Part shown: positions 41,955 through 61,191 of the stretch, one piece after another | How the letters are laid out: each line of letters begins with the position of its first letter | How positions within the stretch are numbered: the first letter of the stretch is position 1 | IMG/VR virus record: IMGVR_UViG_3300025765_000001 | Direction: 5' to 3' (one strand) | Length of the DNA: 64,000 bases | Source: a virus | Taxonomy: Duplodnaviria; Heunggongvirae; Uroviricota; Caudoviricetes | Program-made: the position numbers and the translations under genes | Notes under the pieces: model-generated | What the model was told of the DNA's origin: nothing | Databases searched by the model: none | Seen by the model: only the letters and a program-made list of their open reading frames with translations

Positions 41955-42640
41955 GCCCGCAGTTCTAACAGATTGGGACTATAGAAACAAAATCTATACG
42001 AATGTGTTAGCTCCACCCCGGCGAAGCCGGGGTGGAGCCGGGGTGGAGCCGGGGTGGAGCCGGGGTGGAGCTAACATGCAGTTCTAACAGATTGGGACTA
42101 TAGAAACAAAATCTATACGAATGTGTTAGCTCCACCCCGGCTTCGCCGGGGTGGAGCTAGTCCTATCGCCTAGCTCGTGATTAGATGTGTAGGAACTCGT
42201 GCGGCCCACGAGTTTTTATAGACCGGTCTGTATGTAGGCGGGTTTCTAGGCCCGTCCGCAGTTCTAATAGATTGGGTCTATAGAAACAAAATCTATACGA
42301 ATGTGTAGGCGGGTTTCTAGGCCCGTCCGTAGTTCTAACAGATTGGGTCTATAGAAACAAAATCTATACGAATGTGTTAGCTCCACCCCGGCTTTGCCGG
42401 GGTGGAGCAGTTTAGCCCGATGGAGTTTAGGTTCGACCTCGGCTTTGCCGGGGTGGAGCAGTTTAGCCCGATGGAGTTTAGTAGTACGAGGTTCGACCTC
42501 GGCGAAGCTATATCTGAGCAGTTTAGCCCGGTGGAGTTTAGTAGTACGAGGCTCCCCGCCTGACGAATGTGTTGGCTTCCTATATCTGAGCAGTTTAGCC
42601 CGGTGGAGTTTAGTAGTACGAGGCTCCCCGCCGCCTGCTG
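41955..42640. repeat. Complex non-coding repeat/palindrome region, possible origin or terminus
   Basis: Four copies of AGTTCTAA(C/T)AGATTGGG(A/T)CTATAGAAACAAAATCTATACGAATGTGT, CTCCACCCCGGC/GCCGGGGTGGAG palindromes, GAGCAGTTTAGCCCG repeats. Confidence 0.9.
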
Positions 42641-42880
42641 GCGGGGTGTGGGAAAGTGTTCCGGGTCTCGTACAACTCATCTTGTGCCGCCGACATACGG
42701 GCATTTTGGACAGTTGGACCAGAGGAGTTTAGTTGTACGAAGACCGGCCGTGGCCCGGTCCACGAGTTAAGTAGTACTGCAACAGTATTTATGGGTTTTT
42801 GGGCAGTTGGACCAATTGAGATGCGTTGTACAAGGGGGTTGTACGAGGGGGTTTTGACAACCGAGGCACGAGGAACTATC

Positions 42881-43090
42881 ATGACCAGGAAAGACTTCGA
42901 GATGATCGCTGAGGCGGTAGCCGAGGCTCGTGAGGTTCTGAAGCAAGATCAGGCCCATAACGGTCCGGTGCTGGCTGACAGCGAGTGGGCCTACATCTTC
43001 AACCGGGTGGGGGAGTCGTTGGTACGGCAGCTTCGCCGGTCGAATCCGCAGTTTGACGCTGAGCGGTTTGTGAAGGCGTGTCGGCAGTAA
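42881..43090 (+). CDS. Small hypothetical protein (MTRKDFEMIA...NPQFDAERFVKAC)
   Basis: CACGAGG box; first gene of array. Confidence 0.75.
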   Translation: MTRKDFEMIAEAVAEAREVLKQDQAHNGPVLADSEWAYIFNRVGESLVRQLRRSNPQFDAERFVKACRQ

Positions 43091-43211
43091 AAGTGGGCGG
43101 ATGGCTGACAAGTCATGATTAAGTTGTCGGCGGACTGCGGATGCGGGGTTTGTAGACCGATCTAGTTACGTGGTACAAGCGAGGCCGGGTTAATTAACGC
43201 ACGAGGGAACC

Positions 43212-43643
43212 ATGAAGCATAATTTCACGAAGAAGCAAGTAATGAGTGTGGCTCAGACGGGTCTGGAAAAGGCCGTCGCTGAGTGGCTCTGCGACCGGGC
43301 GGACGACTACGACGGTGATCCGTGCGGGCCGCTCCGTGACTTGTTTCAGGGCGGCTGCATGAGTGGGATGGTGTCGCATCTAGTTTATTATTGTGACACG
43401 GTGCCGTTCTACGAGCAGCACAAGGCGGACATTTGGGCCTTGGGCATCGAGCAGGCCGAAGACTTCGGCAACAAGAATGTGTTCGAGTTCTTTGCCGGGC
43501 TGAACGTGGGCAACCTAGGCGACCTGGGAGACTACAATCAGGTTGCGAATGGTTTGGCGTGGTACGGCTTTGAGGAAGCGGCTCGCCGGATTGAGAACGC
43601 CCTGAACAGCCTTGATGAAGAGGATGAGGATGATGAGGACTAG
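43212..43643 (+). CDS. Acidic phage-type protein, possible DNA mimic
   Basis: GCMSGMVSHLVYY.DT..FY...LAWYGFEE; poly-D/E tail. Confidence 0.75.
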   Translation: MKHNFTKKQVMSVAQTGLEKAVAEWLCDRADDYDGDPCGPLRDLFQGGCMSGMVSHLVYYCDTVPFYEQHKADIWALGIEQAEDFGNKNVFEFFAGLNVGNLGDLGDYNQVANGLAWYGFEEAARRIENALNSLDEEDEDDED

Positions 43644-44050
43644 AAACAAAAACACCTGACAGACCGGATAGGATTTCCCTTCTCCGATCTGTCAGGTGGA
43701 AGCCTCCATTACATGAGTAGTAAGGCTTTCGCCTCCCTGGGTCATGCAGGGGTGAGGCTTTTTCAGCCTTGCGAGTTGCTTGTTTAGGGCTTCCCGCTTG
43801 GCCCCGATTACCTTACTGGTCTCGCATTCGGCTGTGAGACCGAACGTGATTTTTGGATAATCGAGTTGCTTGCCGGTGTTCTCCGTCAAGCGTTGGTCTC
43901 AATTTAATGATTCGTGGCCGGAGTTCAATAGCTCTTGGCGAATTTTTTCGAGATTTTCTCATCTGGTTGGCTCGTCTCGACTTGGGGAGTTTAGTTGTAC
44001 GGGGCGAGTGTGGAAAAGTTGTTGATAACTCAAGAGGGACCAGAATAACG

Positions 44051-44299
44051 ATGCCATTTCCGACTGATGTGAGAGATATCCGGCCTGGAGAAACCGTTGA
44101 GAAGGTGATGCCGCACAGCGAAGTGTGTATGCACATGCGGGTTGCGGGCAAGTGGATGAAGGTCCGGCTTCTTGAATCGGGCCGCATGTGCCAGTTATAC
44201 TTCCTGGACTTCAAACCGTTCAGCAGCCCGATTACAATTGGCGAGGCCGGTATTTTTCACCGGGACGACACGTTCTACTACTACCCAGACCTGGGCTAG
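44051..44299 (+). CDS. Hypothetical protein
   Basis: Motif-preceded ORF. Confidence 0.6.
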   Translation: MPFPTDVRDIRPGETVEKVMPHSEVCMHMRVAGKWMKVRLLESGRMCQLYFLDFKPFSSPITIGEAGIFHRDDTFYYYPDLG

Positions 44300-44366
44300 T
44301 TTAGTTACGAAACGTGTGATGCGGCGGTCACAACCCTTGAGGGTGATCAGGAGAATAGTGGCATCG

Positions 44367-44522
44367 AATGTACTGGGTGCCACGAAATCTTCTGTGACAA
44401 CTGCTACGACTGTAGCAAGGGCGATGGTTGCCACTGTCACGAGCAATGTACTGGGTGCCACGAAATCTTCTGTGACAACTGCTACGACTGTAGCAAGGGC
44501 GATGGTTGCCACTGTCACGAGC
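44367..44522. repeat. Exact 78-bp tandem duplication in a start-less Cys-rich frame
   Basis: Unit starts at 44367 and 44445; encodes CTGCHEIFCDNCYDCSKGDGCHCHEQ. Confidence 0.9.
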
Positions 44523-44619
44523 AGGATTACGAAGTACTCATCATCCACCGGGGGTGATTTGTAGTACAGTGAGGGTTGAGCGAGACAACCTGAGTCCCTA
44601 AGCATGAGGGGGTTACACA

Positions 44620-45180
44620 GTGGCGAAACCGATGACCCCGGTGGACCGACCGAAGCTGGAGGCTGCACTTCGGGAGGCAGAGAAGAACGGACCGCTCGCC
44701 AACATGGGTGAGTTGTGGAAGCGAGTTGCCGAATTATACAATGCCAACCCTGGCGTGCAGCAGATCACGTTCAGCGTGGTCTTGTTGCGGGTCAAGGAGT
44801 GGGGCATCCAGGTCAAGACGCAGCCCGGTCGCAAGGGCGGGCCGATGAGCGAGGAGCATAAGCAGGCCTTTGCCGTCAGCCGTGGGAAGAGGACGCCCAG
44901 GGCTGAGAAGATGAAGGAATTCAAGACCTTCGATCTGCTCCGTGCGGAGTTGGGCAAGGATAATCGTCGTCGGTTTCTGCCGGTGGTTGATGCTGCCGAG
45001 AAGGGCAGCCTGCGGGCGGCGATCAAACTGACCTGCCTGGACTGTTGCAACTGGCAGACTTCGGAAATCAAATTGTGCGGCATTGAGTCCTGTGCAATGT
45101 TCCCGCACCGGCCCTACAAGCTAGGGCAGGTGGTCGAAGTCGATGAGGGCGATGAAGAGATGGACGAGGCCGAAGGATGA
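44620..45180 (+). CDS. Hypothetical protein with C-terminal Cys cluster
   Basis: AAIKLTCLDCC...C...C.MFPHRPY. Confidence 0.75.
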   Translation: MAKPMTPVDRPKLEAALREAEKNGPLANMGELWKRVAELYNANPGVQQITFSVVLLRVKEWGIQVKTQPGRKGGPMSEEHKQAFAVSRGKRTPRAEKMKEFKTFDLLRAELGKDNRRRFLPVVDAAEKGSLRAAIKLTCLDCCNWQTSEIKLCGIESCAMFPHRPYKLGQVVEVDEGDEEMDEAEG

Positions 45181-45232: not shown

Positions 45233-46009
45233 TTGTCGGTCTTGATGAATTGTGAAACGCAGCACTTCCCCGTAGATGTTTACGCCGCAGTCGTTGCACC
45301 ACAGGGCCGACTTTGTACAACTAAACTCAGTCAGTCAGCGACAAAAGATAGATTTCCGCTGCATGAGGAGGACGAAGATGGTGAGAAACGCTTCAAGGTG
45401 CCTCAGCCGGAAACCCAGATCACGGTATATGTCGTGGCGTGGCAGTACAACACCGGGGTCGGGTTCGACTGGTATCGTCGCCCTGGCGATGCTGATGCCG
45501 CCTACGAGGAAGAGAAGGGCAACGCTGACGAGATGGCTGATGAGGGGTGGTCGGCCTATCGTTTCGACTATGTTGTGTCCTCGAAGATGAGCGACGAGCA
45601 GATTACGCAGTTGATCGACTCTGAACTGGACGATCTGTATGTCAAGGCCACGGAGAAGCACGAAAACGTCCTCGACAAGTACGGCAAGAAGTTGAGCGAG
45701 ATCAAGCAGAGCCGAGGCGTGGTTTACAAGGCGGTGTCGTTCTGCTACACCAACAAGAGCGGCGGCACGAACATGATACAGTGCGAATCCCCCAAGCTGA
45801 CCCAGTTCCAGCGGCTCTCGGCCCGCTACAAGGATCAGAAGGTGAAATGGTTGGCCGAGTTTACGATCCAAAAGCAGTGGCACGACTACGAGACGGGCGG
45901 GCGAATGATCGGCTTGCCGGTCAACAAGGAACTGAAAGCGTTCCTCAAGCGGCACGCTCATCCTGACAAGCAGGTGATCTACGTCAGCCAGCACGACCTG
46001 TTGAGATAA
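45233..46009 (+). CDS. Hypothetical protein, 5' end uncertain
   Basis: Long ORF; reversed array motif at ~45310-45330 inside its 5' part. Confidence 0.55.
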   Translation: MSVLMNCETQHFPVDVYAAVVAPQGRLCTTKLSQSATKDRFPLHEEDEDGEKRFKVPQPETQITVYVVAWQYNTGVGFDWYRRPGDADAAYEEEKGNADEMADEGWSAYRFDYVVSSKMSDEQITQLIDSELDDLYVKATEKHENVLDKYGKKLSEIKQSRGVVYKAVSFCYTNKSGGTNMIQCESPKLTQFQRLSARYKDQKVKWLAEFTIQKQWHDYETGGRMIGLPVNKELKAFLKRHAHPDKQVIYVSQHDLLR

Positions 46010-46058
46010 GTCGTACAGGCGAGACCGGTGACAAAACTATTCTCTGGAGGACCGAGCA

Positions 46059-46499
46059 GTGAGCGATACCCTTGTGAACGCCTTGAAACTCATCAAGGCC
46101 CTGCACGACAAGCCTGAGTGTGGGGCGTTGTTCGTGCAGTTCAACCAGTCGGTGCGGGAGCAGGTGTTGCTCGCACCGAAAACGCTGGAGCAGTTGACAG
46201 CGGCAATCGACGTGGCCGAGAAGCGGGCGGTCGAGCCTGAGTACGTCTCTGTGATCGTGGTTCGCAACGACGTGGTGGACCAGAACTATCTTTTCGTTGG
46301 GCCGAGCCGCATCATTGCGGCGTCCGCCGAGGAGAAGTTCAAGGAACTGGTGAAGGGTGAGGGCCTGGAGCCGGACGACCTGGAGGCCGTGCTGGAGGAT
46401 GGCTATTGGGAGTTCAAGGACGGCAATGGTTCTGTCTGTATCAACTGGCCTGAGCGTCTTGCAGCAACGACTCTGGGCCGGGGTCTCAACGTCAAGTAA
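46059..46499 (+). CDS. Hypothetical protein
   Basis: Motif plus GGAGG RBS, hairpin downstream. Confidence 0.7.
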   Translation: MSDTLVNALKLIKALHDKPECGALFVQFNQSVREQVLLAPKTLEQLTAAIDVAEKRAVEPEYVSVIVVRNDVVDQNYLFVGPSRIIAASAEEKFKELVKGEGLEPDDLEAVLEDGYWEFKDGNGSVCINWPERLAATTLGRGLNVK

Positions 46500-46597
46500 G
46501 CCGAGGGGCTATCGAAACCCTAGGCGGCGTGCCGCCTAGGGTTTTTTGTGTTGTACTGGGTGAGTTTAGTTGTACGGTGAGGAACGAGGAGGGCACG

Positions 46598-46819
46598 ATG
46601 GACGAACAAGAAGCGACCAACAAACTCGAAAAACTGGTGGGCAGTGTGGACTGTTGTTTCCGCCTGATGCGGCTCTATGTGAGTTGCGAGCAGGCGGCAT
46701 CTGGCAACCGATTCACTTTGCAGAAGCTATCGACTGCCGAGGAGCGGTTTCGCAAGCGTGCGAAGGAAGAGGGCTATAGCCAAGCGGCTATCAACCACTA
46801 CCTGAACCACATTTGCTGA
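46598..46819 (+). CDS. Hypothetical protein
   Basis: Motif plus GAGGAGG RBS. Confidence 0.65.
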   Translation: MDEQEATNKLEKLVGSVDCCFRLMRLYVSCEQAASGNRFTLQKLSTAEERFRKRAKEEGYSQAAINHYLNHIC

Positions 46820-46866: not shown

Positions 46867-47131
46867 GCTTCATGTAGAAAGGACGTGGACTATGCAAACC
46901 GCACTTGGCACAATCACTCACCGTTACTGGTGGGATCAGGGCATCTACTTCCGGCAGGCTCTTCGGGGTGGGCCGGTGGAAACCTGGAACAGCCAGACCT
47001 GGGCTTGAGCTATGCCAAAAGAAGGTATGAATAAGCAGAAAGGCTGGTTGAGTTTCGGCGTACAAGAGAGATCGAGGCGATCGGCGGGGGCCTTCAATCC
47101 TGCCACAACAGCACGAGGAGGGTTCTATACT

Positions 47132-47512: not shown

Positions 47513-47660
47513 CCCTCGTGCTGCCCTTGGCTCAAGGCCAGGGCCGGGGGAAGCAGACCCAGGGGCGGCGTCCGCCCCTGGGTTTTTCTAGCCTATCTGA
47601 TGAGTTAAGTTGTACAGGGCAGGGCGGACAGGACCAACAACTAGCACGAGGGACCAGACC

Positions 47661-48044
47661 ATGACCAAGAATCCCGTCGAGACCGGCGAGCTTATCCCGA
47701 TCACCACGCACGGCAGCCTGAACGTCATTGCGGCTGGACCGCTGACCAAGCAGCCGGGCACGATGCCATATCGCATCGTTATCCTCCAGGACTCCGATGG
47801 CAAGTACAGCGTCCACAATCAGGTCTACTCGGACCTGGGCAACCTCGTAGACCCCGACGTGAGGCTGCTGGCCGAGTTGGGGGCAACTTCCGACAAGCCG
47901 CCTTGTGCGAGCCTGTGCCACGGTCACTACTTCGGTGCCGGGGCTGAGGGGCTGACGAAGGCCACGATCAAGTTCTGCGAGAAGGTGCGGGACCATGCCC
48001 CGATGGTCGAGTCCATCTATCGGGAGGCCGTCGTAGTTTCGTAG
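47661..48044 (+). CDS. Hypothetical protein
   Basis: Motif-preceded; stop codon lies in next motif. Confidence 0.7.
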   Translation: MTKNPVETGELIPITTHGSLNVIAAGPLTKQPGTMPYRIVILQDSDGKYSVHNQVYSDLGNLVDPDVRLLAELGATSDKPPCASLCHGHYFGAGAEGLTKATIKFCEKVRDHAPMVESIYREAVVVS

Positions 48045-48097
48045 TACAGGGCAGGGTGAGGCGAGATAACTTTACCACTGGCACGAGGACCAAGACA

Positions 48098-48400
48098 ATG
48101 GCAGGCAAACGCAAGGCCAAGGCGAAGAAAGCCGAGTTCAAGGGTGTGAACATCGACTTCTCGTTCAGCGGCTACATCAACGGGGCACGGATCACGAAGG
48201 TAACGGAGAATCTCAAGCGTGCTCCGTACTTCCGGGTCATCAGCACCGAGGGCATGACGCCGAAGAAACTGGCTGCTAGCTTGAACAGCGGCAAGTACAC
48301 GATCAGCCTGGGCGACTTCCTGTACGAGAACAGCGAGGACCAGGAGATCGAGATTACGGACTTCCAAGAGTCCTACGAACAGTCGGGCGACGAGGACTAA
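48098..48400 (+). CDS. Hypothetical protein
   Basis: Motif-preceded. Confidence 0.7.
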   Translation: MAGKRKAKAKKAEFKGVNIDFSFSGYINGARITKVTENLKRAPYFRVISTEGMTPKKLAASLNSGKYTISLGDFLYENSEDQEIEITDFQESYEQSGDED

Positions 48401-48455
48401 CCCTGTTGCGTAGTACATGTCAAGGCGACCAGCAACCACGAGGGAGGATACATCC

Positions 48456-48701: not shown

Positions 48702-48853
48702 CCGCAAGGCGAGCCGGTACACCAGTGAGTTCCTATAGCTGGGCCGAAAGGGAGTTGCCCCTGGCCGGGTGGTTGTCACTGCCCGGCCAGGATTTATAAA
48801 ACCGGTTGAGTTGAGACGTACAAGAGAGGGCGAGGAATACAAGCTAATGTGAT

Positions 48854-48881
48854 TTGACATCGGTTGCGAGTTACTTATAAT
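48854..48881 (+). promoter_or_regulatory. Promoter TTGACA-N16-TATAAT
   Basis: Consensus hexamers, just downstream of an array motif. Confidence 0.8.
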
Positions 48882-49900: not shown

Positions 49901-50231
49901 GGCGGGTGCAACCCCAGGGGTGCTGGTCCACCCCTGGGGTCTTTTCTACATAGCGACGAAGATACGCAAACGAGCGAAGCAAGCCGATGTCCATGTGTCG
50001 GACAGTGGCACCGTCTATTTAGTCACGCCCCTGAGCAGTGGGTCGAAGAGAACGTCCAGCTTGAGCCATACCAGTGCTGGCATCAAGACCACGCCAGGGC
50101 GAAGGGCCGGTCCACCAAAAGCCCGGCCTCCAGGCCGGGGCCGTTTCCTAGATCGACCTAGTTTAGTAGTACAAAGGAGGGCGGACCAAACAAGGCACGA
50201 GCCAAGACCAGACAACGGAAAGGAACATATC

Positions 50232-50774: not shown

Positions 50775-51481
50775 GTGACACGTGGCTGCGGGTCATTAAC
50801 CCGCCGCCCGAACAGCATACGGGCAACTGGATCGCCAAGTACATCCACCTTGAGGACGGCAAGCAGGAGTTCGATCACGACGCCACGCCGGGCGAGACGC
50901 ATACCGGCGACGAGTGGGCCAAGCTGCGACCCGATATGTTCAAGGAACATCTTGATGGGGCTGTCGGCCCCAACAGCATCTACCATTCGAGGAGGGACAA
51001 GGTGGACAAGACAAAATTATTTCAGGCCGTGGTGACGGTTCAGGTCGAGGGCAAGGACTTCACCACGAGCGAACTGGCGAGCGTTCTGGAAAAGTGTGTC
51101 ACCGTGGACCTTCTCATCGAGGACGGCGAACACGCTTTCGGCGACGACGGCGAGAACGAGGTCCAGGGCGTTTGCCTGGATTGGGAAACACTGCGGCTTG
51201 CTGGCAAGCCGGTTCATCTGCTACTCAAGGACATCAAGTGGGACAGCGACGGGATGCGGCCTGTCGAGGACTGCCTGTTGCCGCTCAACGTCCTGGCCCT
51301 CAACGCCCCTGCGAATTGGGATACGAAGGAGTATCGGGAAGCTCTGGCCGATGAGATCAGCAAGGTTTACGGCTTCCTGCATTACGGCTTCGAGATTGTG
51401 CCACACACGCCGGACAGTAAGGGCAAGCGGAACAATCCCCCGTTCCTGGCGGTGATGGAAGCTCCTGAACTGCCTGAGTAG
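50771..51481 (+). CDS. Hypothetical protein
   Basis: ATGA-coupled 236-aa ORF. Confidence 0.7.
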   Translation: MSDTWLRVINPPPEQHTGNWIAKYIHLEDGKQEFDHDATPGETHTGDEWAKLRPDMFKEHLDGAVGPNSIYHSRRDKVDKTKLFQAVVTVQVEGKDFTTSELASVLEKCVTVDLLIEDGEHAFGDDGENEVQGVCLDWETLRLAGKPVHLLLKDIKWDSDGMRPVEDCLLPLNVLALNAPANWDTKEYREALADEISKVYGFLHYGFEIVPHTPDSKGKRNNPPFLAVMEAPELPE

Positions 51482-51528
51482 TGTAGTACAGGGCAGGGCG
51501 GACCAATAACACCCAACACGAGGAAGCC

Positions 51529-51804
51529 ATGAAGTTCAAAGAGATCAAAATGAAGCTGCCTCGCCACGATGCCGACGTGGTGATCGAGTTCCCTGGCGGT
51601 AAGACGTTGACGATCCAAGCACGGCCCAGCAATGCGGACGTGAACTACAACGGCTCGCTCGACATCATCCTGCCGGATAATCAGCACGTCACGAATTGGG
51701 AAGGTGACGACATGAAACCGGCTCGTGGCGTGCGGGGGCAGGCTTGCACTCGTATCGCAAAGCAACTGGTGACGGACCTTCCAGGGGATTACCATGACGA
51801 TTAG
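51529..51804 (+). CDS. Hypothetical protein
   Basis: Motif-preceded. Confidence 0.7.
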   Translation: MKFKEIKMKLPRHDADVVIEFPGGKTLTIQARPSNADVNYNGSLDIILPDNQHVTNWEGDDMKPARGVRGQACTRIAKQLVTDLPGDYHDD

Positions 51805-52061: not shown

Positions 52062-52379
52062 ATGAAGCCGACTTACGACGAACTACACGATGCCCTGGAT
52101 GCCCTAGTGCATGAACTAGAGGAGTGGGACGTTCCGCAAACGGATGAAGAGGGCGAGTTCGGTCCCGATACTGCATTGGGCCACGCTCAGGCCCTCTTGA
52201 AGCGAGTCGAGGAACCAAGCTACGCCTTCCAGGTGCGGGACGGGGCACTATACGAAGGCGAATTGCTCCTGAGCGAGTGGGACGACGGCGAGTTTGTGCC
52301 GAGCCGCAAACTGCTGGAAATGCCTTCCAGCTACCAGCAGCAGGCCGACGCCTACGCACGAACCAACGGGCCGAGCTAG
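52062..52379 (+). CDS. Acidic hypothetical protein (start MKPTYDEL)
   Basis: GAGGA RBS within ORF 51879..52379. Confidence 0.6.
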   Translation: MKPTYDELHDALDALVHELEEWDVPQTDEEGEFGPDTALGHAQALLKRVEEPSYAFQVRDGALYEGELLLSEWDDGEFVPSRKLLEMPSSYQQQADAYARTNGPS

Positions 52380-52434
52380 TTACGTCGTACAGGGAAGGGC
52401 GAGATAACTTTACCACCACACGAGGACACGAAAC

Positions 52435-52866: not shown

Positions 52867-53165
52867 TAAAAGACAACGGGCGGCTTTGCCGCCCGTTGTC
52901 TAGTCTTCCTGAGTTGAGTTGTACAGGGCGTTGTTGGAGAAGTACCCAGACGCCAGCCCTGGTGTGTTCAATGCCGAGTATTCGTCCGAGTGGGACGATC
53001 AACGAAATGCAAATACGATCCCACGCTCAAGCTGTGCTTCGACATCGAGGACAGCGGCGAGGCTCCTGACGGCACACTGACCGACGAGTGGGTCTGGTTC
53101 GCCGATGTTTAGTGGTACAGGACAGGACAGGGCGAGGCGAGAACAAGACACGAGGAACTAGACCG

Positions 53166-54188: not shown

Positions 54189-54192
54189 CAAA

Positions 54193-54221: not shown

Positions 54222-54282
54222 AGATCATCCTAGTTGTGTTGTACAGGACAGGGCGACGAGAACCCAAACACGAGGTATACCG

Positions 54283-54708: not shown

Positions 54709-55000
54709 GTCTGCGGTGAAGGCTCAACCCAATGAGGTAGGCCAGAGCGGATGGGAACAGCCCCAGGGCGAAAGCCCTGGGGCTGGCCGGTATACCAGGA
54801 GTTGTGTTGTACAGGGAAGGGCGAGGAACGAACCAACACGAGGACCAACCATGTCAGTCAAGATGCGTCAGCACGTCGAGGCAACCCGTTGTCTACAACG
54901 CTGACACCCATGCTCAACGTCCTGGTCTATGAGTGGTTTCCAGACTGGTGAGGTTGCGTAGTACAGGCGAGGGCGAGACACCTAACACGAGGACCAGACC

Positions 55001-55159
55001 ATGTGGGAAAACGCTTCCTATGAAACCAAGCTACGGATTCTCGAAGCCGAGTCCACGGTGATGATCGGCCTGCTGCTTGAGGATGTCACACTCGTTGACA
55101 TGATCCGGCGTGGTGAATCGCAGGCCGCTTGCCTGAACTACATCAACGAGAACTGGTAG
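55001..55159 (+). CDS. 52-aa hypothetical protein (not in ORF track)
   Basis: Motif plus CACGAGGAC; MWENASYETK...YINENW*. Confidence 0.65.
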   Translation: MWENASYETKLRILEAESTVMIGLLLEDVTLVDMIRRGESQAACLNYINENW

Positions 55160-55206
55160 AGTTGTGACGTACAAGGCAAATCAACCTATCACGAGGAACC
55201 AAGACC

Positions 55207-55536
55207 ATGAGCGTCAAGATGCGTCAGTGTGTCGAGCGGATCATCGCCCGTCGTGTTATTTTGGACCTGAAGGCGGCTGGCTTCCTGCTCAACATCAACA
55301 ACGGCGGGGATGACTATGAACTTCCCCGGCCCACGAATAACATCAAGGAATTGCTGGCGGCGATGTTCGCCACGGACGATGAGCGGCTGTACGTCTTCCG
55401 GCCCGGCCAGGAAAAACCCTTCGCCTGGGTGTGGTTCGTGTACGGAAATGATGGGTGGGACGTGGTGAGCGACTACACCACCAATATCGACGCCTACATG
55501 AAGGGGGCCAGCGAGTTAGCCAACAAGTACAGCTAA
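55207..55536 (+). CDS. Phage-type hypothetical protein
   Basis: WVWFVYGNDGWDVVSDYTT; motif-preceded. Confidence 0.75.
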   Translation: MSVKMRQCVERIIARRVILDLKAAGFLLNINNGGDDYELPRPTNNIKELLAAMFATDDERLYVFRPGQEKPFAWVWFVYGNDGWDVVSDYTTNIDAYMKGASELANKYS

Positions 55537-55667
55537 GATACGTCGTACAGGGCAACCCGTTGTCTACAACGCCGACACGTCCTGGTCTATGAGTGGTTTC
55601 CAGACTGGTGAGGTTGTGTAGTACAAGGCAGGGCGAGGCGGAAACGAACCCCAATACGAGGATGACC

Positions 55668-56300: not shown

Positions 56301-56556
56301 CATGGCCGGGCTGCACCCGCCGCAAGGCGGGTGCAGCTAGATCATCTAAGTTGTGTTGTACAGGGCAGGGCGAGATGGATGACATGACCGTCACTGGCGA
56401 CGAGATGGAGAGCGAACGCACTACCGATGCATAAGGTGTGCGTGTCGAACATTACTTGCAATCTACAACCGTGGTGATTTTCTAGTGCGAATCTAAATCG
56501 GTCTAGTTGTGTTGTACTAGAGAGGACGGAATCTCACAAGCACGAGGACCAGGACC

Positions 56557-56925
56557 ATGAGCGTCGATGCTGTCGAGGAAATGCCGCACGGCAACCGTAT
56601 CGTCAATGCCTTCGAGCGTAAAAAGGCCGAGATCGCCAAGCGAATCAAGGACGGCCTGACCACGGCGGAAAAGGTCGAGATCGCCCGCAAGAGCCTAGAC
56701 ATGAACCTGGAGGAATATATCTCGCTCCAAGAAGTCAAGTCCCTGGCCGTCGCAATGGAACTGCTCACCGTCGATGAGGGCCAGTCCATCTATGCGGCCC
56801 TTGAGGGCGGCATCGAGATATTCAACCGCCAGCCGGTCCATATCAAGCACGTCATCAACGGCTTGCACGTTCAGCTTCTCATCTGGAAGCGTGCAGGCTG
56901 CCCGGTCCCGAAGAAGAAAGACTAG
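56557..56925 (+). CDS. Hypothetical protein
   Basis: Motif-preceded. Confidence 0.7.
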   Translation: MSVDAVEEMPHGNRIVNAFERKKAEIAKRIKDGLTTAEKVEIARKSLDMNLEEYISLQEVKSLAVAMELLTVDEGQSIYAALEGGIEIFNRQPVHIKHVINGLHVQLLIWKRAGCPVPKKKD

Positions 56926-56981
56926 GCCAGTTGTGTAGTACATGAGAAGGCGGATCAGTCACCTAATCAGGAGTTAGACTA

Positions 56982-57539
56982 ATGGCGACCATCACTCGTG
57001 ACGAACTGGAAACCATGCTTCGAGGTCTGGACCGCCCTCTCATCGCTACCCTGCTCACCGACGTTGAGCCGGAAATGGTGAAGAAGGATCGGGAAACCAA
57101 AGAGCCGAACCCCTACCTGGGCCGTGTCCGCAAGCAGTCCAGGGTCAACGGTATCATCGGTGCGTGGAACTACACGAACGCCGTCAACAACCAGCGGATG
57201 CGTGAGTCCGACGCCGAAACCGTGGAAGAGGTCGAGGCCGTGCCGATCTTCGAGGCACTGCCGAGAGCCTGGGGCGAACGGCTGACCGGAACTGCCCTGG
57301 TCCACCACAAGGGCCAGTATTACGTCGAGGTCAAGGTCGAGCGGGCTATCGAAACGGTCTACATGATCGACGGCAGACCGGCGAGCGAGGCCGAGGTCGA
57401 GGCCATCCGGCGATACCTGCCCAAGCGTGAAAACGAAGGGCAGCGGCAAGAGGTCGAGAAAATCGTGGTCCTTCGTGATTACAAGCTCGACTCCATCAAG
57501 GCCGTGCGTGTCGGCGGCGAACAGTATGACGTGAACTAA
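56982..57539 (+). CDS. Phage-type hypothetical protein
   Basis: NPY.G...YTNAVNNQ...WG...HKGQYY; AGGAG RBS. Confidence 0.75.
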   Translation: MATITRDELETMLRGLDRPLIATLLTDVEPEMVKKDRETKEPNPYLGRVRKQSRVNGIIGAWNYTNAVNNQRMRESDAETVEEVEAVPIFEALPRAWGERLTGTALVHHKGQYYVEVKVERAIETVYMIDGRPASEAEVEAIRRYLPKRENEGQRQEVEKIVVLRDYKLDSIKAVRVGGEQYDVN

Positions 57540-57644
57540 TCACAGGTTAGGCGGGCCATACGGCCCGCCTAACCTAGATCGGCTGTGTTCAGTTGTACGA
57601 GTGAGGGCGAGGTCGGAAGCGATAGCTCTAACCACGAGGTGACC

Positions 57645-57851
57645 ATGCACGCCAAGAAGGACAAGTACGACGGCTCAGGATACTACGAACTGCGGCACGA
57701 AAGCCGCTTGCTCAAGCGGGGAAATTATACCTACTGCGTTGCAGCCCTGCAATCGGTTTGCGGTTACTCCATCGAACGGGCTGCGGTCGAAGGCTACACC
57801 ATCCTGCCCATCGCCATGAACTGCTTGACCGGCGAGAACAAGATCGGCTAG
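57645..57851 (+). CDS. Hypothetical protein
   Basis: Motif-preceded. Confidence 0.65.
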   Translation: MHAKKDKYDGSGYYELRHESRLLKRGNYTYCVAALQSVCGYSIERAAVEGYTILPIAMNCLTGENKIG

Positions 57852-57913
57852 TGAGGTTGTGTTGTACAGGGCAGGGCGAGGCGAATGACAAAACTATTCC
57901 GCACGAGGTCAAC

Positions 57914-58174
57914 ATGACTGACAAAACCAAGACCGAGGTTCGGCTGACTTCTACCCCCTGGATCAACACGCCCGGCGTGCTGCGATGGACAATCAACGGC
58001 TACAAGTTCAAGAAGAACCGCAAGGCCATGCGGTGGATTCTCACCAAGGGCTACAACCTGACCGATGAGGTTGCGGACGGCCTGCTCAGCGGCAAGATTC
58101 CGCACCGCATCGAGGGCGAGGACGTGGTTTTCGAGGTCGAGGACGAGTACAAGCGGGCTGCCGTTGTTATGTAG
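57914..58174 (+). CDS. Hypothetical protein
   Basis: Motif-preceded; stop in next motif. Confidence 0.7.
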   Translation: MTDKTKTEVRLTSTPWINTPGVLRWTINGYKFKKNRKAMRWILTKGYNLTDEVADGLLSGKIPHRIEGEDVVFEVEDEYKRAAVVM

Positions 58175-58220
58175 TACAGGACAGGGCGAGTAAGACAACA
58201 AACCCAAACCGAGGTAAAAC

Positions 58221-58799
58221 ATGAACACGATCAAGCGAACCCTGAACCTAGGCAAGATCGCCCTGACCGGCAAGACCAAGCGAAACGAAGTCAGCCTTGA
58301 GCTTACCATCGGCACCGAGGGCACTGCAAGCGTTCAACGTGATTGGGATACTCTCGCCGAGGTCAAGGGCGGTGTGCGTATCTCCATCTGCGGCCACGTC
58401 TGGAACGCAACTACCCGCACCAAGTTGGCGACGGGCGGGCAGATCATCGACGTTATCTGCACCTACTTCGACCACGATAGGCGGGTCATGCGGATTTGTG
58501 CCCTCTGGGACCGCTGGCACCTAAACGACATGAAGGCCGGGACCAGAGTACAGACTGCCTACCTGGACGGCTACAAGGCGGCTCTGTTCAACGCCGGATC
58601 GGTCCTCAAGGGGGCCGAGGCCGTGGCCCAGGTCGAGACGTTCCGCCGTCTGTTCCAAACGAACTACCATAAGACCGCAAGCGGCATCCTCAAAGCCGCT
58701 GGCCTGCTGGTGGACCGGGGCTATAAGTACGGGTCTGCGTGGCTGATCGAACAGCCCCCGGCCCAGGTCATCGAAGAACTACAGGAGTTGTTCAGCTAA
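58221..58799 (+). CDS. Phage-type hypothetical protein
   Basis: GGQ...WDRWHLNDMKAG...GYKYGSAWL. Confidence 0.75.
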   Translation: MNTIKRTLNLGKIALTGKTKRNEVSLELTIGTEGTASVQRDWDTLAEVKGGVRISICGHVWNATTRTKLATGGQIIDVICTYFDHDRRVMRICALWDRWHLNDMKAGTRVQTAYLDGYKAALFNAGSVLKGAEAVAQVETFRRLFQTNYHKTASGILKAAGLLVDRGYKYGSAWLIEQPPAQVIEELQELFS

Positions 58800-58911
58800 C
58801 ACCTAGAGGCCCGCCCCTACGGGGCGGGCCTCAGTTGACCGACTGTGTTGAGTAGTACAGAGCAGGGCGACCAAGCAAACCATGTTGCAAGGACTACCAT
58901 GAACGCCGATC
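58765..58911. repeat. Source copy of the 147-bp inverted repeat
   Basis: Matches reverse complement of 30846-30992. Confidence 0.95.
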
Positions 58912-59069
58912 GTGCGAAAGACAAGGCTCGAACCCTGGCCCGCAAGCAGGCCCGCAAACAGAAGCAGGACGGCTGGTTACCCATCACCCAGCAGCGGCCC
59001 ATGAAGCACGACCGGCCTCGCAAGGCACCGAAGGGCTGGGAATACGTCGAAACCAGCGTGGAGGATTAG
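58899..59069 (+). CDS. Small basic protein
   Basis: Motif-preceded. Confidence 0.6.
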   Translation: MNADRAKDKARTLARKQARKQKQDGWLPITQQRPMKHDRPRKAPKGWEYVETSVED

Positions 59070-59124
59070 TCTAGTTGGGTCGTACAGGCGAGGGTGAGCA
59101 ACGAAACCCCAAGGAGCTAGTCCC

Positions 59125-59397
59125 ATGACCAAGACTGTGCTTGCGTTCCTGGCGGATGGCGGCGACGGCAAGGCCCTGGTGGGCCGTCAGGTCAACTTCG
59201 TTCATTGCAGCGGCAATACCAAGACGGCCCGCCTGGAGTCGGTCAACGACAACGGCACGGCTACCATTCGCTACAACGGGCGAACCGATGCGGACTGGTA
59301 TTTGCCCTTCGCCCTGCCCCTGGGCGAGTTGACCCTGGAGCTAGGGGCCGATGAACTGCCCCCGTACTATGACGCCAGACCGCTCACCCAACGGTGA
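59125..59397 (+). CDS. Hypothetical protein
   Basis: Motif plus AAGGAG RBS. Confidence 0.7.
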   Translation: MTKTVLAFLADGGDGKALVGRQVNFVHCSGNTKTARLESVNDNGTATIRYNGRTDADWYLPFALPLGELTLELGADELPPYYDARPLTQR

Positions 59398-59491
59398 GCG
59401 GTGGGCCGGGACTAGTCCCGGTCCTAAACCGGGTGAGTTGAGTAGTACGACTGAAGGCGAGGAACGATCACCCCGAACTGAGGACAACGCA

Positions 59492-59851
59492 ATGCACCCG
59501 AAGCTCAGCAAGCTCACCCGCCTGGGAAACAGCGTCTCTGTGTTCGTGCCTTCGCTTATCCACGCCACGGAGAACGACGGTGGAGCCAAGCAGAAGGAAT
59601 GGACCGACCGGCTCATGGTGGAACAGGCCAAGATGTTCGGCGGCGTCTCGGTCTACACCGTCGAAGGCGGCTGGTGGTCCGGCACGCATGGCTTGATTCG
59701 TGAAGGTGTCAAGGTGGTCCAGAGCATGGCTTCCGATGCCGACCTGGACGCCCATATCAAAACCGTCATCGGTCTGGCTGAACGAATGAAGGCTGACATG
59801 AGCCAGGAAGCGGTCTCGGTCATGGTCAACGGCGAAATGTATCTGGTCTGA
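59492..59851 (+). CDS. DUF3574-like / possible SAM-lyase-fold protein
   Basis: FGG.....GGW...LIRE...MK..MSQEAVSV.VNGEMYLV pattern, recalled not searched. Confidence 0.5.
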   Translation: MHPKLSKLTRLGNSVSVFVPSLIHATENDGGAKQKEWTDRLMVEQAKMFGGVSVYTVEGGWWSGTHGLIREGVKVVQSMASDADLDAHIKTVIGLAERMKADMSQEAVSVMVNGEMYLV

Positions 59852-60231
59852 CCAGAGCGACCGGCCCATAGGCCGGTCGCAATTTGCACCAGTCCGTGTA
59901 CAACGCATCTCACCAGGTCAAGAACAGGAGCGGGACAGCTAGCAATTTTATTTCGCCCACCTGTGTTGAGTTGTACGGGGGCGGGTGAAGGCCGAAACAA
60001 CCAGTCGAACCGAGGGCATCGCAATGCGGCGTCTCTTCTCCCACGGGCGGCGTAAGCTGTTCGGCAAACCCGTCTGGAGCAGCGGCTTGACGAACTGATT
60101 GCCGACCGCAAACGGATCACCCAACACCAACACCATCTGGGCGAGGCTGAGATCGAGCGGCGTATCCGGGGCTGATCTAGTTGTGTAGTACATGCAAGGG
60201 CGAAGTCGGAAGCATCCTCAGAGTGTGTCTC

Positions 60232-60438
60232 ATGAAGCTGGCTGACCTGGGCAACTGCAAGACCGGCTACTGGGTCGGGGTCCAGACCGGCAAGAAGGTC
60301 GTAGCTGTCTCGCCCGTCTTCACCTACAAGCAGCAGGCCGAGGCATGGAACGACCAGCAGAATCTCCCTAGCCGTGCCCTGGCATGGACGTACAAGGAAG
60401 CGGCCCGCTCCAGCGGGCCGCTTCGATCGGCACCCTGA
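60232..60438 (+). CDS. Hypothetical protein
   Basis: Motif-preceded. Confidence 0.55.
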   Translation: MKLADLGNCKTGYWVGVQTGKKVVAVSPVFTYKQQAEAWNDQQNLPSRALAWTYKEAARSSGPLRSAP

Positions 60439-60474
60439 GTTAAGTAGTACAGGGTAGGGCGAGGAGGACAAAAC

Positions 60475-60705
60475 ATGATCCCGTTCCTGCTGGCTCTGCT
60501 GTTCCTGGCTTCCCCTGGCTTGATGGCCTTGCTCGCTGGCGGGCTGTCGTATTACGGCTATCGCCGTCACACGGTCCTGGGCGAGTGGTCCTGGGATGCC
60601 TTCGGCGATGGGCTGGTGATGTTCGCTGCCGTCTGGCTCGGTGCTGGTTGGCTGCTTTGCCCCGCTCATCTACATGAGCGGGGCGTGATGAGTAGTACAG
60701 TGTAG
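60475..60705 (+). CDS. Small membrane protein
   Basis: Two hydrophobic segments, GAGGA RBS. Confidence 0.65.
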   Translation: MIPFLLALLFLASPGLMALLAGGLSYYGYRRHTVLGEWSWDAFGDGLVMFAAVWLGAGWLLCPAHLHERGVMSSTV

Positions 60706-60741
60706 GGCGAAGTGGACGACACACAACCCAAACCGAGGACG

Positions 60742-61068
60742 ATGAACATGGCTCACCGACGTTGCGAAGACGCCCCCTGCTGCGGCTGCTGCCCGGACTA
60801 CACCCAGGCCGAACCCTACGACCCGGAGTTCATGGACCACGACTTCGACGACGTGGACCACGACTTCGATGACGTGGACCACGACTTCGACGATGACGTG
60901 GACCACGACTTCGACGATGACGTGGACCGGTCCTATGATGACGAAGAGCCGGACCAGTTCCGTGACGACGTGGAGGCCGATGCCGACGTGCTGCGGTCTG
61001 CTGGCTTCGGGACCGATGAGGACTACGGTGCCTATGAGGACATGGGCGATTGGGGCTATGGCGACTAG
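60742..61068 (+). CDS. Very acidic protein with CEDAPCCGCC and DHDFDDV repeats
   Basis: Motif-preceded; 21/24-bp tandem repeats at ~60832-60927. Confidence 0.7.
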   Translation: MNMAHRRCEDAPCCGCCPDYTQAEPYDPEFMDHDFDDVDHDFDDVDHDFDDDVDHDFDDDVDRSYDDEEPDQFRDDVEADADVLRSAGFGTDEDYGAYEDMGDWGYGD

Positions 61069-61084
61069 GGCTAGGCCCTAGCTC

Positions 61085-61191
61085 TGTGTGATATGGACCG
61101 GTCCATGCAATGGACCGGTCCATATCATTATCAACAATGTGAAAATTATTTTGAAAAACCTAAAGAGTTAGGTAGTACATGGGGGGTAGGC
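61085..61191. repeat. Right copy of the ~110-bp inverted repeat
   Basis: Matches reverse complement of 26738-26848. Confidence 0.95.

What the first reader, a model, noticed from the sequence alone, without database searches (positions are those of the whole stretch)
42475..61190. About 35-gene array punctuated by a fixed-geometry GTAC motif
Seen: about 40 copies of AGTT-N2-GT-N-GTAC-A-N4-AGGGCG, usually 35-60 nt before an ATG and followed by a CACGAGG box. The motif often overlaps the previous stop codon (48044, 52379, 55159, 58174) or follows a GC hairpin. Outside 42.4-61.2 kb I saw it only in the two repeat copies (26755, 30899), where it points with the local genes. Some copies front broken ORFs (44300, 52921, 56358) and one is reversed (45315). 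It matches no sigma70 promoter, attC or CRISPR repeat I know. Inference: either a one-promoter-per-gene early regulon read by a phage factor (the sigma at 26914 is a candidate) or crossover sites of an integron-like cassette system that shuffles anti-defence genes.
Basis: partly seen in the sequence, partly recalled or inferred. Interest (0 to 1): 0.85.

Follow-up and report, generated by a model that had tools for sequence, protein, structure and literature searches.

The report
Private promoter array in a megaphage
A giant uncultured T4-like phage puts the same 35-base signal, most likely a phage-specific promoter, in front of about 35 small unknown genes, and related phages keep the signal while gaining, losing and moving the genes; this is a new variant of the known promoter-terminator cassettes (PeSLs) of T4-type phages.

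Summary
A position matrix finds 44 clear copies of tGACC-N5-AGTTnnGTnGTACAGGnnAGGGCGA in the 436-kb phage genome. All lie at window 26767-61166, and 40 are on the + strand at 42475-61166.

Each copy follows a GC hairpin or abuts the previous stop codon. Its last conserved G usually lies 25-39 nt before an ATG. The "CACGAGG box" is the Shine-Dalgarno site.

Four metagenomic relatives carry homologous arrays with the same motif. Core motif bases are 97-100% identical between orthologous sites, against 63% at third codon positions. Gene order is mostly collinear, with single-cassette moves, gains and losses.

One orthologous gene (an AAA ATPase) has a sigma70-type promoter in one relative, the motif in another, and both in this phage.

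The motif forms no array in IMG/VR or in 185,579 bacterial genomes. The genome shows no tyrosine recombinase and no recognisable phage RNA polymerase. It has three sigma-family genes, one beside the array behind a degenerate motif copy.

Best reading: a phage-private promoter in PeSL-like cassettes of a hyperplastic ORFan region, probably read by host core polymerase with a phage sigma. The integron reading is not supported. This scan has reported similar private-promoter arrays in other phages.

The parts
42475..61189 (+). Array of about 35 small co-directional genes. It holds 40 forward motif copies, has the highest GC in the genome (0.57-0.60 against 0.50) and uses the (C)ACGAGG Shine-Dalgarno.
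41760..42860 (+). Gene-less left border. It has four ~90-nt repeats, an 11-bp tandem repeat and five weak or partial motif copies lacking the AGGGCG block (42475, 42535, 42607, 42726, 42819). The GC skew changes sign here. The same layout occurs in relatives L052 and L049.
43164..43187 (+). Motif copy (34.6 bits) before gene 43212-43643 (DUF7222).
44555..44578 (+). Motif copy (25.7 bits) before gene 44620-45180.
45304..45327 (-). Reversed motif copy (28 bits) in the gap before gene 45378-46009. The orthologous gap in relative L049 holds a forward copy.
46004..46027 (+). Motif copy (29.7 bits) overlapping the previous stop codon, before gene 46059-46499.
46563..46586 (+). Motif copy (29.2 bits) only 11 nt before the ATG of 46598-46819. 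The short spacing is kept in L049. This may be a leaderless transcript.
47051..47074 (+). Motif copy (31.1 bits) before gene 47132-47512.
47603..47626 (+). Motif copy (37.4 bits) after a -30.7 kcal/mol hairpin, before gene 47661-48044.
48035..48058 (+). Motif copy (39.2 bits) overlapping the stop codon of 47661-48044, before gene 48098-48400.
48404..48427 (+). Motif copy (31.8 bits) before gene 48456-48701.
48809..48881 (+). Motif copy (40.1 bits, 48809-48832) followed by a perfect TTGACA-N16-TATAAT promoter (48854-48881). The two promoters lie in tandem before gene 48920-49900 (phrog_35561).
50160..50183 (+). Motif copy (39.2 bits) before genes 50232-50774 and 50771-51481.
51477..51804 (+). 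Motif copy (38.8 bits) plus gene 51529-51804. In relative A this cassette lies elsewhere, between the homologues of 42881-43090 and 43212-43643.
52378..52401 (+). Motif copy (39.5 bits) overlapping the previous stop codon, before gene 52435-52866.
52912..53112 (+). Weak motif copy (15.9 bits) with a 40-codon remnant of a gene that is 126-133 aa in relatives.
53106..53129 (+). Motif copy (25.6 bits) before gene 53166-54188 (PAPS-reductase domain).
54232..54255 (+). Motif copy (39.1 bits) after a -29 kcal/mol hairpin, before gene 54283-54708.
54800..54975 (+). Two motif copies (54800, 33.5 bits; 54952, 40.4 bits). The first precedes a 33-codon ORF and the second precedes gene 55001-55159.
54917..55637 (+). 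A 61-nt direct repeat (gene tail plus motif; copies at 54917-54977 and 55577-55637, 93% identical) flanks genes 55001-55159 and 55207-55536. Relatives lack 55207-55536 at this place.
55160..55183 (+). Motif copy (24.7 bits) before gene 55207-55536, a cassette that lies elsewhere in relative A.
55612..55635 (+). Motif copy (42.6 bits) before gene 55668-56300 (phrog_6186).
56349..56372 (+). Orphan motif copy (42 bits) with no gene behind it. Relatives have an extra cassette here.
56505..56528 (+). Motif copy (31.7 bits) before gene 56557-56925.
56929..56952 (+). Motif copy (34.4 bits) before gene 56982-57539.
57586..57609 (+). Motif copy (37 bits) after a -30.9 kcal/mol hairpin, before gene 57645-57851.
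57855..58174 (+). Motif copy (40 bits) plus gene 57914-58174. This cassette lies elsewhere in relative A, next to the PAPS-reductase homologue.
58165..58188 (+). Motif copy (40.2 bits) overlapping the previous stop codon, before gene 58221-58799.
58765..58911 (+). Right arm of the 147-nt, 100% identical inverted repeat. It holds a terminator hairpin, a motif copy (58846, 43.6 bits), the leader and the first 5 codons of gene 58899-59069.
30846..30992 (-). Left arm of the same repeat. Here the identical terminator-motif-leader cassette (motif at 30911) precedes a different gene (30578-30823), inside the insertion that splits a UvrD-like helicase gene.
59073..59096 (+). Motif copy (35.6 bits) before gene 59125-59397.
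59436..59459 (+). Motif copy (34.4 bits) before gene 59492-59851.
59964..60202 (+). Motif copies at 59964 (31.5 bits, no gene called behind it) and 60179 (38.1 bits, before gene 60232-60438).
60438..60461 (+). Motif copy (37 bits) 13 nt before the ATG of gene 60475-60705.
60686..60709 (+). Motif copy (29.9 bits) before gene 60742-61068, the last array gene.
61085..61186 (+). Right copy of a 102-nt AT-rich element ending in a motif copy (61166, 18.5 bits). No gene follows it.
26747..26848 (-). Left copy of the 102-nt element (motif at 26767, 23.5 bits). It is inserted between a perfect TTGACA-N16-TATAAT promoter (starting at 26891) and the AAA-ATPase gene 25503-26708. Relative L004 lacks the insert.
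26914..27879 (-). Divergent sigma70-family gene and candidate reader of the motif.
27902..27925 (-). Degenerate motif copy (2.4 bits; 14 of 17 defined bases) 37 nt before the sigma gene start. It is the only weak site in the genome with canonical spacing to a gene.

Best explanation
The motif is a promoter private to a small clade of uncultured T4-like megaphages. With an upstream GC hairpin (a terminator) or the preceding stop codon, and a downstream A/C-rich leader with an ACGAGG ribosome-binding site, it forms a one-gene expression cassette.

About 35 such cassettes are strung head to tail in a GC-rich, fast-changing accessory region full of ORFans. This is the same architecture as the PeSL (promoter-early stem-loop) cassettes of T4-type hyperplastic regions.

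Unlike PeSLs, the promoter is not the host sigma70 consensus. That consensus drives genes elsewhere in this genome as TTGACA-N16-TAyAATGg.

Inferred steps. Transcription starts inside or within about 10 nt after the AGGGCGA block. The divergent sigma next to the array (26914-27879) is the first candidate. It would be made from host-type promoters in the left arm and would then switch on the array.

Because the cassettes share 35-150 nt of near-identical sequence, they also serve as substrates for homologous recombination. That recombination moves, deletes, duplicates and inverts single genes. This is a by-product, not a dedicated site-specific system.
For: Shown here:
- 44 copies, all inside one 34-kb stretch of a 436-kb genome, against 0.13 expected by chance.
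- Copies point with their genes, including the left-arm copies on the - strand.
- The spacing to the start codon is tight: 25-39 nt in 58 of 79 cases, and no credible gene start lies closer than 11 nt.
- Strong hairpins lie upstream of 36% of sites against 6% of controls. In 62 of 111 sites the motif abuts the previous stop codon.
- Only three good sigma70-like promoters lie in the 19-kb array. Genome-wide there are 28 TTGACA/TAyAAT matches against about 4 in shuffles.
- Four metagenomic relatives have homologous arrays with 8-47 co-oriented copies.
- In 33 orthologous pairs the core bases are 97-100% identical, against 63% at third codon positions and 30-45% in flanks.
- Natural promoter replacement occurs at the AAA-ATPase gene. 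L004 has the sigma70-type promoter only. L052 has the motif only, 32 nt before the start. This phage has both.
- No motif array exists in IMG/VR. Only 7 single hits occur in 185,579 bacterial genomes. A phage-encoded specificity factor is therefore more likely than a host regulon.
- No RNA polymerase beta or beta' domains were found, with positive controls. No T7-like polymerase was found.
- There are three sigma-family genes. The one beside the array has a degenerate motif at canonical spacing.
- Its only homologue found in 5.8 billion proteins is one 77%-identical metagenomic protein, a distribution as narrow as that of the motif.
- Cassette turnover is seen as three transposed cassettes, many gains and losses, an orphan promoter, a decapitated unit, a flanking 61-nt direct repeat, and a 147-nt, 100% identical cassette copied in front of an unrelated gene.

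Geometry. The motif can be read as AGTT-N15-GGGCGA. The sigma28 fliC promoter has TAAA around -34..-31 and GCCGATAA at -15..-8 (PMC12784957). On that alignment the start site falls at motif position 36. The three closest start codons lie at positions 36-38.
Against: - Promoter activity and the start site are therefore inferred.
- The strongly conserved GTnGTACA block would lie in the spacer of any sigma28- or sigmaB-like reading. Known sigma promoters do not conserve the spacer.
- The motif is one contiguous 35-nt signal, more like a single-subunit polymerase promoter or an activator site.
- Nothing ties the motif to one of the three sigmas in particular. The FliA-like sigma at genome 143.6 kb is an equal candidate on family grounds.
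- The genome is estimated to be 85% complete, so a polymerase gene could be missing.
- The sigma model folded poorly (pLDDT 52).
- Homology often resumes at the motif simply because the motif is conserved. Breakpoint positions therefore do not prove recombination within it.
Confidence: 0.6

Rival explanations
1. The motif is a promoter, but for an unrecognised phage RNA polymerase. This could be a single-subunit or virion-delivered enzyme that is too divergent to detect or is encoded in the missing 15% of the genome. It would start in the AGGGCG block, as T7-type enzymes start in GGGAGA.
For: The signal is contiguous, about 24-35 nt long, with a conserved G-rich 3' block. Four sites have the ribosome-binding site directly after position 24, which suits a start inside the block. 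The motif is absent from bacterial genomes. The record is 85% complete.
Against: PF00940 and a tblastn with T7 RNA polymerase find nothing. The PF00940 search has no positive control. No beta or beta' domains were found, with positive controls. The genome already encodes three sigma-family proteins, which implies use of host core polymerase.
Confidence: 0.1
2. The conserved upstream part (GACC-N5-AGTTnnGTnGTAC) is the binding site of a phage activator or repressor, comparable to the MotA box of T4 middle promoters. The regulator would redirect or gate host polymerase carrying the host sigma. On this reading the motif is a regulator site rather than a sigma-specific core promoter.
For: The conserved blocks are spaced about one helical turn apart, centred near -7.5, 3, 11.5 and 22. 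That suits a protein on one face of the DNA. Partial copies that keep the upstream half but lack AGGGCG are clustered in the gene-less left border, here and in relatives. Tandem arrangements with a sigma70-type promoter exist at 48809/48854 and 26891/26767.
Against: Most copies have no TAnnnT -10 element or other host-type promoter nearby. In L052 the motif alone replaces the sigma70-type promoter of the AAA gene. No MotA- or AsiA-like protein was identified, but none was searched for either.
Confidence: 0.15
3. The motifs are crossover sites of a dedicated site-specific, integron-like cassette system.
For: The region is an array of co-oriented ORFan cassettes separated by one repeated element. 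Cassettes have been gained, lost, moved and inverted between relatives.
Against: The genome has no tyrosine recombinase, with positive controls in 14 of 14 genomes. The only serine recombinase lies about 185 kb away. The motif is asymmetric, has no consensus fold and a folding z-score near 0. Its spacing to the ribosome-binding site and ATG is fixed. It is conserved base for base at orthologous genes that have not moved. In the one junction examined, the moved unit is promoter plus gene, and the resident motif stays with the downstream gene.
Confidence: 0.03
4. The motif acts in RNA. It would be a processing site or a target of a trans-acting RNA or ribonuclease that cuts a long early transcript into single-gene messages, or a translation enhancer.
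For: About half of the copies abut the previous stop codon without a hairpin, so they would be transcribed by read-through. The invariant GTA-C could serve as a hammerhead NUH site. This scan reported such a case in another phage.
Against: There is no consensus RNA structure and no Rfam family in 24-64 kb. No hammerhead core with arms matching the motif was found, and no antisense match beyond the known reversed copies. Variable bases at positions 5, 6, 9, 17 and 18 would break pairing with one guide. Many copies follow strong hairpins, stand in gene-less tandem clusters or are orphans. The motif substitutes for a sigma70-type promoter at the AAA gene.
Confidence: 0.05

Closest known systems
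PeSL (promoter-early stem-loop) cassettes of T4-type phages (Arbiol et al. 2010, PMC2839356; Comeau et al. 2014, PMC4122927)
   Same: - A composite intergenic unit: stop codon, stem-loop terminator, promoter, Shine-Dalgarno and start codon.
- About 50 copies per genome, concentrated in hyperplastic regions immediately upstream of ORFans.
- Relatives differ by insertions, deletions and replacements at the cassettes.
- PeSL-like sequences lie between the halves of split genes. Here a cassette sits in the insertion that splits a UvrD-like helicase.
- The phage has a T4 gp23-type capsid gene.
   Different: - PeSL promoters are identical to the host sigma70 consensus with an AT-rich upstream region. 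Here the promoter is a 35-nt GC-rich signal unlike sigma70 promoters, while sigma70-type promoters are used elsewhere in the same genome.
- All copies sit in one 19-kb co-directional block plus three copies in the adjacent arm.
- The hairpin is always upstream of the promoter, never inside it.
- Promoter, terminator and mini-circle activities were shown experimentally for PeSLs. None is shown here.
Phage sigma-factor cascades with private promoters (SPO1 gp28 and gp33/34; phiEco32 gp36 and the phage 7-11 group, PMC4331800; named from the literature list and from general knowledge)
   Same: The phage encodes sigma70-family proteins and uses host core polymerase. A class of phage genes carries a consensus unlike the host promoter. 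The host-type promoters can make the phage sigma first.
   Different: - No experimental link exists between any of the three sigmas and the motif.
- The motif conserves bases in what would be the spacer.
- It drives nearly every gene singly rather than a few operons.
Sigma28 (FliA) promoters, TAAA-N15-GCCGATAA (PMC12784957)
   Same: Two of the three phage sigmas align best with the FliA/WhiG family. The motif can be read as a 4-nt upstream element, a 15-nt spacer and a G/C-rich -10 element with a central CGA. The start site predicted from that alignment coincides with the closest start codons.
   Different: The sequences of both elements differ. The spacer is conserved. Canonical sigma28 promoters are not enriched in the genome: 89 matches against 86-122 in shuffles. 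The sigma beside the array scores far below the family cut-off (26.9 against 189.6 bits).
T7-type single-subunit RNA polymerase promoters
   Same: A contiguous signal of about 23-35 nt, identical in many copies, with a G-rich 3' end. It often follows terminators and is private to the phage.
   Different: No such polymerase gene was found. The melting region is not AT-rich.
Integron attC cassette arrays
   Same: A head-to-tail array of small, mostly unknown, co-oriented genes separated by a repeated element, with gene content that varies between relatives.
   Different: There is no integrase and no imperfect-palindrome or folded site. Every cassette has its own promoter-like signal and ribosome-binding site rather than relying on one Pc promoter.

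Membership tests
PeSL-type promoter-terminator cassettes (T4-type phages) | Repeated intergenic composite of stem-loop, promoter, Shine-Dalgarno and start codon. | tested here: met
   Strong hairpins lie upstream of 36% of sites against 6% of controls. In the rest the motif abuts the previous stop codon. The Shine-Dalgarno and ATG follow at a fixed distance.
PeSL-type promoter-terminator cassettes (T4-type phages) | Concentrated in hyperplastic regions, immediately upstream of ORFans. | tested here: met
   All 44 copies lie in one region. 28 of 31 array proteins have no Pfam family. Gene content varies between relatives.
PeSL-type promoter-terminator cassettes (T4-type phages) | The promoter is identical to the host sigma70 consensus (early promoter). 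| tested here: not met
   The motif has no TTGACA/TATAAT pair. Sigma70-type promoters exist elsewhere in the genome and only three lie in the array.
PeSL-type promoter-terminator cassettes (T4-type phages) | Insertions, deletions and replacements between related phages occur at the cassettes. | tested here: met
   Three transposed cassettes and many gains and losses were seen, plus an orphan promoter, a 147-nt identical cassette at a second locus and a flanking 61-nt direct repeat.
PeSL-type promoter-terminator cassettes (T4-type phages) | Promoter and terminator activity, and mini-circles formed by recombination. | not testable with these tools
Integron (attC cassette array) | An IntI-type tyrosine recombinase next to the array. 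| tested here: not met
   PF00589 has no match in the genome. The controls were positive in 14 of 14 genomes.
Integron (attC cassette array) | The recombination site is an imperfect palindrome that folds as a hairpin. | tested here: not met
   RNAalifold on 82 sites gives no structure, and the mean folding z-score is 0.08.
Sigma70-family factor (protein at 26914-27879) | Regions 2 and 4 are recognisable by profile. | tested here: inconclusive
   phrog_351 (sigma factor) matches residues 102-318 at E 2.3e-13. TIGR02937 gives E 1e-7, below its cut-off (31.7 against 42.9 bits), and the FliA/WhiG alignment is full length. Pfam Sigma70_r4 scores 19.8 bits, below its 24.1 cut-off, and region 2 is not detected. 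The fold model is poor.
Sigma28-type promoter | TAAA-N15-GCCGATAA consensus. | tested here: not met
   Only the geometry (4 nt, N15, an 8-nt element with CGA) is shared; the sequence differs. Canonical sites are not enriched.
Single-subunit RNA polymerase promoter | A cognate T7-like RNA polymerase gene in the genome. | tested here: not met
   PF00940 gives no match. A tblastn with T7 gene 1 gives only noise (E 0.8 or higher). The genome is 85% complete.

The most novel reading that the evidence does not exclude
One of the phage's divergent sigma-family proteins, most likely the 316-aa one beside the array, recognises an unusually long contiguous promoter of about 35 bp. Recognition would include bases (GTnGTACA) in what is normally the non-specific spacer. 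This would give the phage a private, orthogonal transcription channel for a shuffling set of ORFan genes. It would be a PeSL-like gene-exchange system uncoupled from the host sigma70 and therefore portable only within phages that carry the matching sigma.
Probability: 0.35. Interest if true: 0.6.

Novelty: new variant of a known kind. Interest (0 to 1): 0.45.

Why it matters
The finding gives a clean, testable promoter consensus (111 natural sites in five genomes) for a clade of uncultured megaphages whose transcription programme is unknown.

It extends the PeSL idea, in which regulatory cassettes double as recombination handles for shuffling ORFans. Here the promoter is not the host's, so exchanged genes are expressed only in phages with the matching factor.

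The array also marks about 35 ORFans as a co-regulated set. With ArdC-like and PAPS-reductase-like neighbours, it is a reasonable place to look for host-takeover or counter-defence genes.

Tried and rejected
- **Near-identical phage records:** none found for the array.
- **Motif scans:** IMG/VR gave only 1 and 3 single chance hits. The bacterial genome collection gave 7 single hits and no arrays.
- **Relatives in IMG/VR:** none found for the sigma, for the 326-aa array protein or for the FliA-like sigma. The protein database gave a single 77%-identical sigma relative on a 1,962-bp contig.
- **Structure of the sigma:** predicted from a two-sequence alignment, pLDDT 51.6, not used for fold search.
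- **Canonical sigma28 promoters:** not enriched.
- **T4 late promoter TATAAATA:** only 3 copies in the genome.
- **Dyad search for further promoter classes outside the array:** nothing useful.
- **Rfam on window 24-64 kb:** no family.
- **Trans-hammerhead or antisense partner for the motif:** none found.
- **Generic terminator scan:** the tool requires a T-run and was not discriminating (24 found against 17.6 expected). A hairpin-energy comparison was used instead.
- **Sigma54-type reading:** considered and dropped because the GG/GC dinucleotides do not fit.
- **Host sigma70 reading:** dropped because the -10 TAnnnT is absent.

Full report
**1. The observation**

The window lies in a 435,946-bp virus record with 50% GC, estimated 85% complete. 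In that whole genome the pattern matches only inside the window.

An iterated 35-nt position matrix gives a bimodal score distribution. 44 sites score 11 bits or more, and all lie at window 26767-61166. Forty are on the + strand between 42475 and 61166. Two are reversed inside the array (45327, 59910). Two lie on the - strand in the neighbouring arm (26767, 30911).

Pooling 111 sites from this phage and its relatives gives the full signal tGACC-N5-AGTTnnGTnGTACAGGnnAGGGCGA. G2, T4, G7, T8 and G10-C13 are almost invariant.

**2. Anatomy of a unit**

- The gap from the last conserved G (position 24) to the start codon is 23-41 nt for most window copies. With relatives included it is 25-39 nt for 58 of 79 copies. 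No credible gene start lies closer than 11 nt.
- The leader between motif and ribosome-binding site is A/C-rich.
- Upstream, 36% of sites have a hairpin of -20 kcal/mol or lower within 60 nt, against 6% of control positions. In 62 of 111 sites a long open frame ends within -12..+10 of the motif start, so the motif overlaps the previous stop codon.
- All copies next to genes point with those genes.
- The array proteins are nearly all ORFans. 28 of 31 have no Pfam family. The exceptions are DUF7222, a PAPS-reductase domain and a weak DUF3574 match.

**3. The rest of the genome differs**

Outside the array, upstream regions are enriched for AAGGAG-type ribosome-binding sites and for a host-type promoter, TTGACA or CTTTACA, N16-17, TAyAATGg. 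There are 28 promoter matches with at most one mismatch, against about 4 in shuffles.

Only three good sigma70-type promoters lie in the 19-kb array. The array and the adjacent left arm are the most GC-rich parts of the genome, at 0.56-0.59. The motif therefore marks a second promoter class confined to one region.

**4. Relatives**

No phage record or IMG/VR contig has the array or the motif. The bacterial genome collection has 7 isolated hits.

The metagenome scan found multi-hit contigs. With the matrix:
- contig Ga0187892_10003487 (loci L049, L043, L034, L013) has 47 co-oriented sites;
- L016 has 19;
- L052 has 12;
- L033 has 8.

Their proteins are 41-90% identical to the window's array proteins, mostly 50-88%.

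Orthologous intergenic regions keep only the motif and the ribosome-binding site. In 33 orthologous pairs the core bases are 97-100% identical. Third codon positions are 63% identical and the flanks 30-45%. The motif is therefore under strong purifying selection.

**5. Promoter replacement**

The AAA-ATPase gene (window 25503-26708, - strand) has three arrangements:
- In relative L004 it is preceded only by a perfect TTGACA-N16-TATAAT promoter.
- In L052 it is preceded only by the motif, 32 nt before the start, and it is the first gene of the array.
- In this phage it has the sigma70-type promoter followed by a 102-nt insert that ends in a motif copy.

The same position and spacing are thus filled by either signal. 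This is the strongest sequence-only evidence here that the motif is a promoter.

**6. Cassette turnover**

Gene order is collinear overall. However, three single cassettes lie elsewhere in relative A (those starting at window 51477, 55160 and 57855). Many cassettes are present in only some genomes.

- At the one junction examined, the inserted unit is motif plus gene, and the resident motif stays with the downstream gene.
- The window has an orphan motif (56349) where relatives have a gene, and a 40-codon remnant behind a weak copy (52912).
- A reversed copy (45327) sits where the relative has a forward one.
- A 61-nt direct repeat (gene tail plus motif) flanks genes 55001-55536.
- A 147-nt stretch holding terminator, motif, leader and five codons is 100% identical at 58765-58911 and, inverted, at 30846-30992. 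There it heads a different gene inside the insertion that splits a UvrD-like helicase.

This matches what Arbiol et al. and Comeau et al. describe for PeSLs, including PeSL-like sequences between halves of split genes. The phage has a gp23-type capsid gene, so it belongs to the wider T4-like group.

**7. What reads the motif**

- No RNA polymerase beta or beta' domain is present, with controls positive in 14 of 14 genomes.
- PF00940 and a tblastn with T7 RNA polymerase find nothing.
- Three sigma-family genes exist: window 26914-27879 on the - strand, genome 143563-144114, and genome 157526-158137.
- The window gene matches the phage sigma family phrog_351 at E 2e-13. It aligns over its full length, weakly, with FliA/WhiG and RpoD.
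- Its only homologue found in 5.8 billion proteins is one 77%-identical metagenomic protein.
- It is preceded by a degenerate motif at canonical spacing. This is the only weak matrix hit in the genome with that property.

These points make it the first candidate, but nothing excludes the FliA-like sigma at 143.6 kb.

The motif can be read with sigma28 geometry as AGTT, N15, GGGCGA with a central CGA (PMC12784957). That reading puts +1 at position 36, where the three closest start codons lie (positions 36-38). It leaves the strongly conserved GTnGTACA in the spacer unexplained. Canonical sigma28 sites are not enriched.

**8. Rejected readings**

- *Integron-like system.* There is no tyrosine recombinase. 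The single serine recombinase lies about 185 kb away. The motif is asymmetric and unstructured.
- *RNA-level signal.* There is no consensus fold and no Rfam family. No hammerhead or antisense partner was found.
- *Host regulon.* There are no multi-copy hits in 185,579 bacterial genomes, although the host may be unsequenced.

**9. Verdict**

The best-supported reading is a phage-private promoter embedded in PeSL-like cassettes of a hyperplastic ORFan region, probably served by a phage sigma. Recombination between cassettes shuffles the genes.

This is a new variant of a known kind, not a new category. This scan has already reported comparable private-promoter arrays in other phages. They are on unrelated DNA, and no look-alike stretch was indexed.

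Noticed in passing
whole genome G000 (window included): CGCG occurs 0 times (about 790 expected) and GCGC 4 times (about 820 expected) in the parts counted (genome outside window 24000-64000, plus the array). All four RGATCY hexamers occur 0 times in the whole 436 kb although GATC occurs 2,054 times. The array shares this avoidance, so it is not a recent foreign import.
   Followed up: partly
window 41760-42860: Gene-less region at the sign change of the GC skew. It has four ~90-nt direct repeats, each ending in a hairpin, an 11-bp tandem repeat and tandem partial motif copies. A similar layout opens the arrays of relatives L052 and L049. It may be an origin, a genome end or a cluster of tandem start sites.
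   Followed up: partly
window 29185-33247 (- strand): A UvrD-like helicase is encoded as two genes (32024-33247 and 29185-30474), separated by about 1.5 kb of small ORFs. These include a motif-bearing cassette identical to one in the array.
   Followed up: partly
window 26747-26848 and 61085-61186: A 102-nt AT-rich element with two internal 14-nt palindromes ends in a motif copy. One copy is inserted between a sigma70-type promoter and the AAA-ATPase gene. The other lies at the right end of the array with no gene behind it. It looks like a small mobile or recombined module.
   Followed up: partly
window 44367-44522: A perfect 78-nt tandem duplication lies in a degenerate stretch of the array between motif copies 43988 and 44555.
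   Followed up: no
window 24446-25489 (- strand): An ArdC-like anti-restriction N-domain fused to a zincin metallopeptidase (PF08401, PF18818), directly downstream of the AAA-ATPase gene that carries the motif.
   Followed up: no
window 61356-63534 (- strand): Two convergent genes, one noted by another reader as a methyltransferase, are absent from the homologous position in relative A (L013). They look like an insertion at the right border of the array.
   Followed up: partly
genome-wide against window 10000-61000: The ribosome-binding site differs by region. (C)ACGAGG dominates in the array and the adjacent arm. AAGGAG dominates in the rest of the genome.
   Followed up: partly
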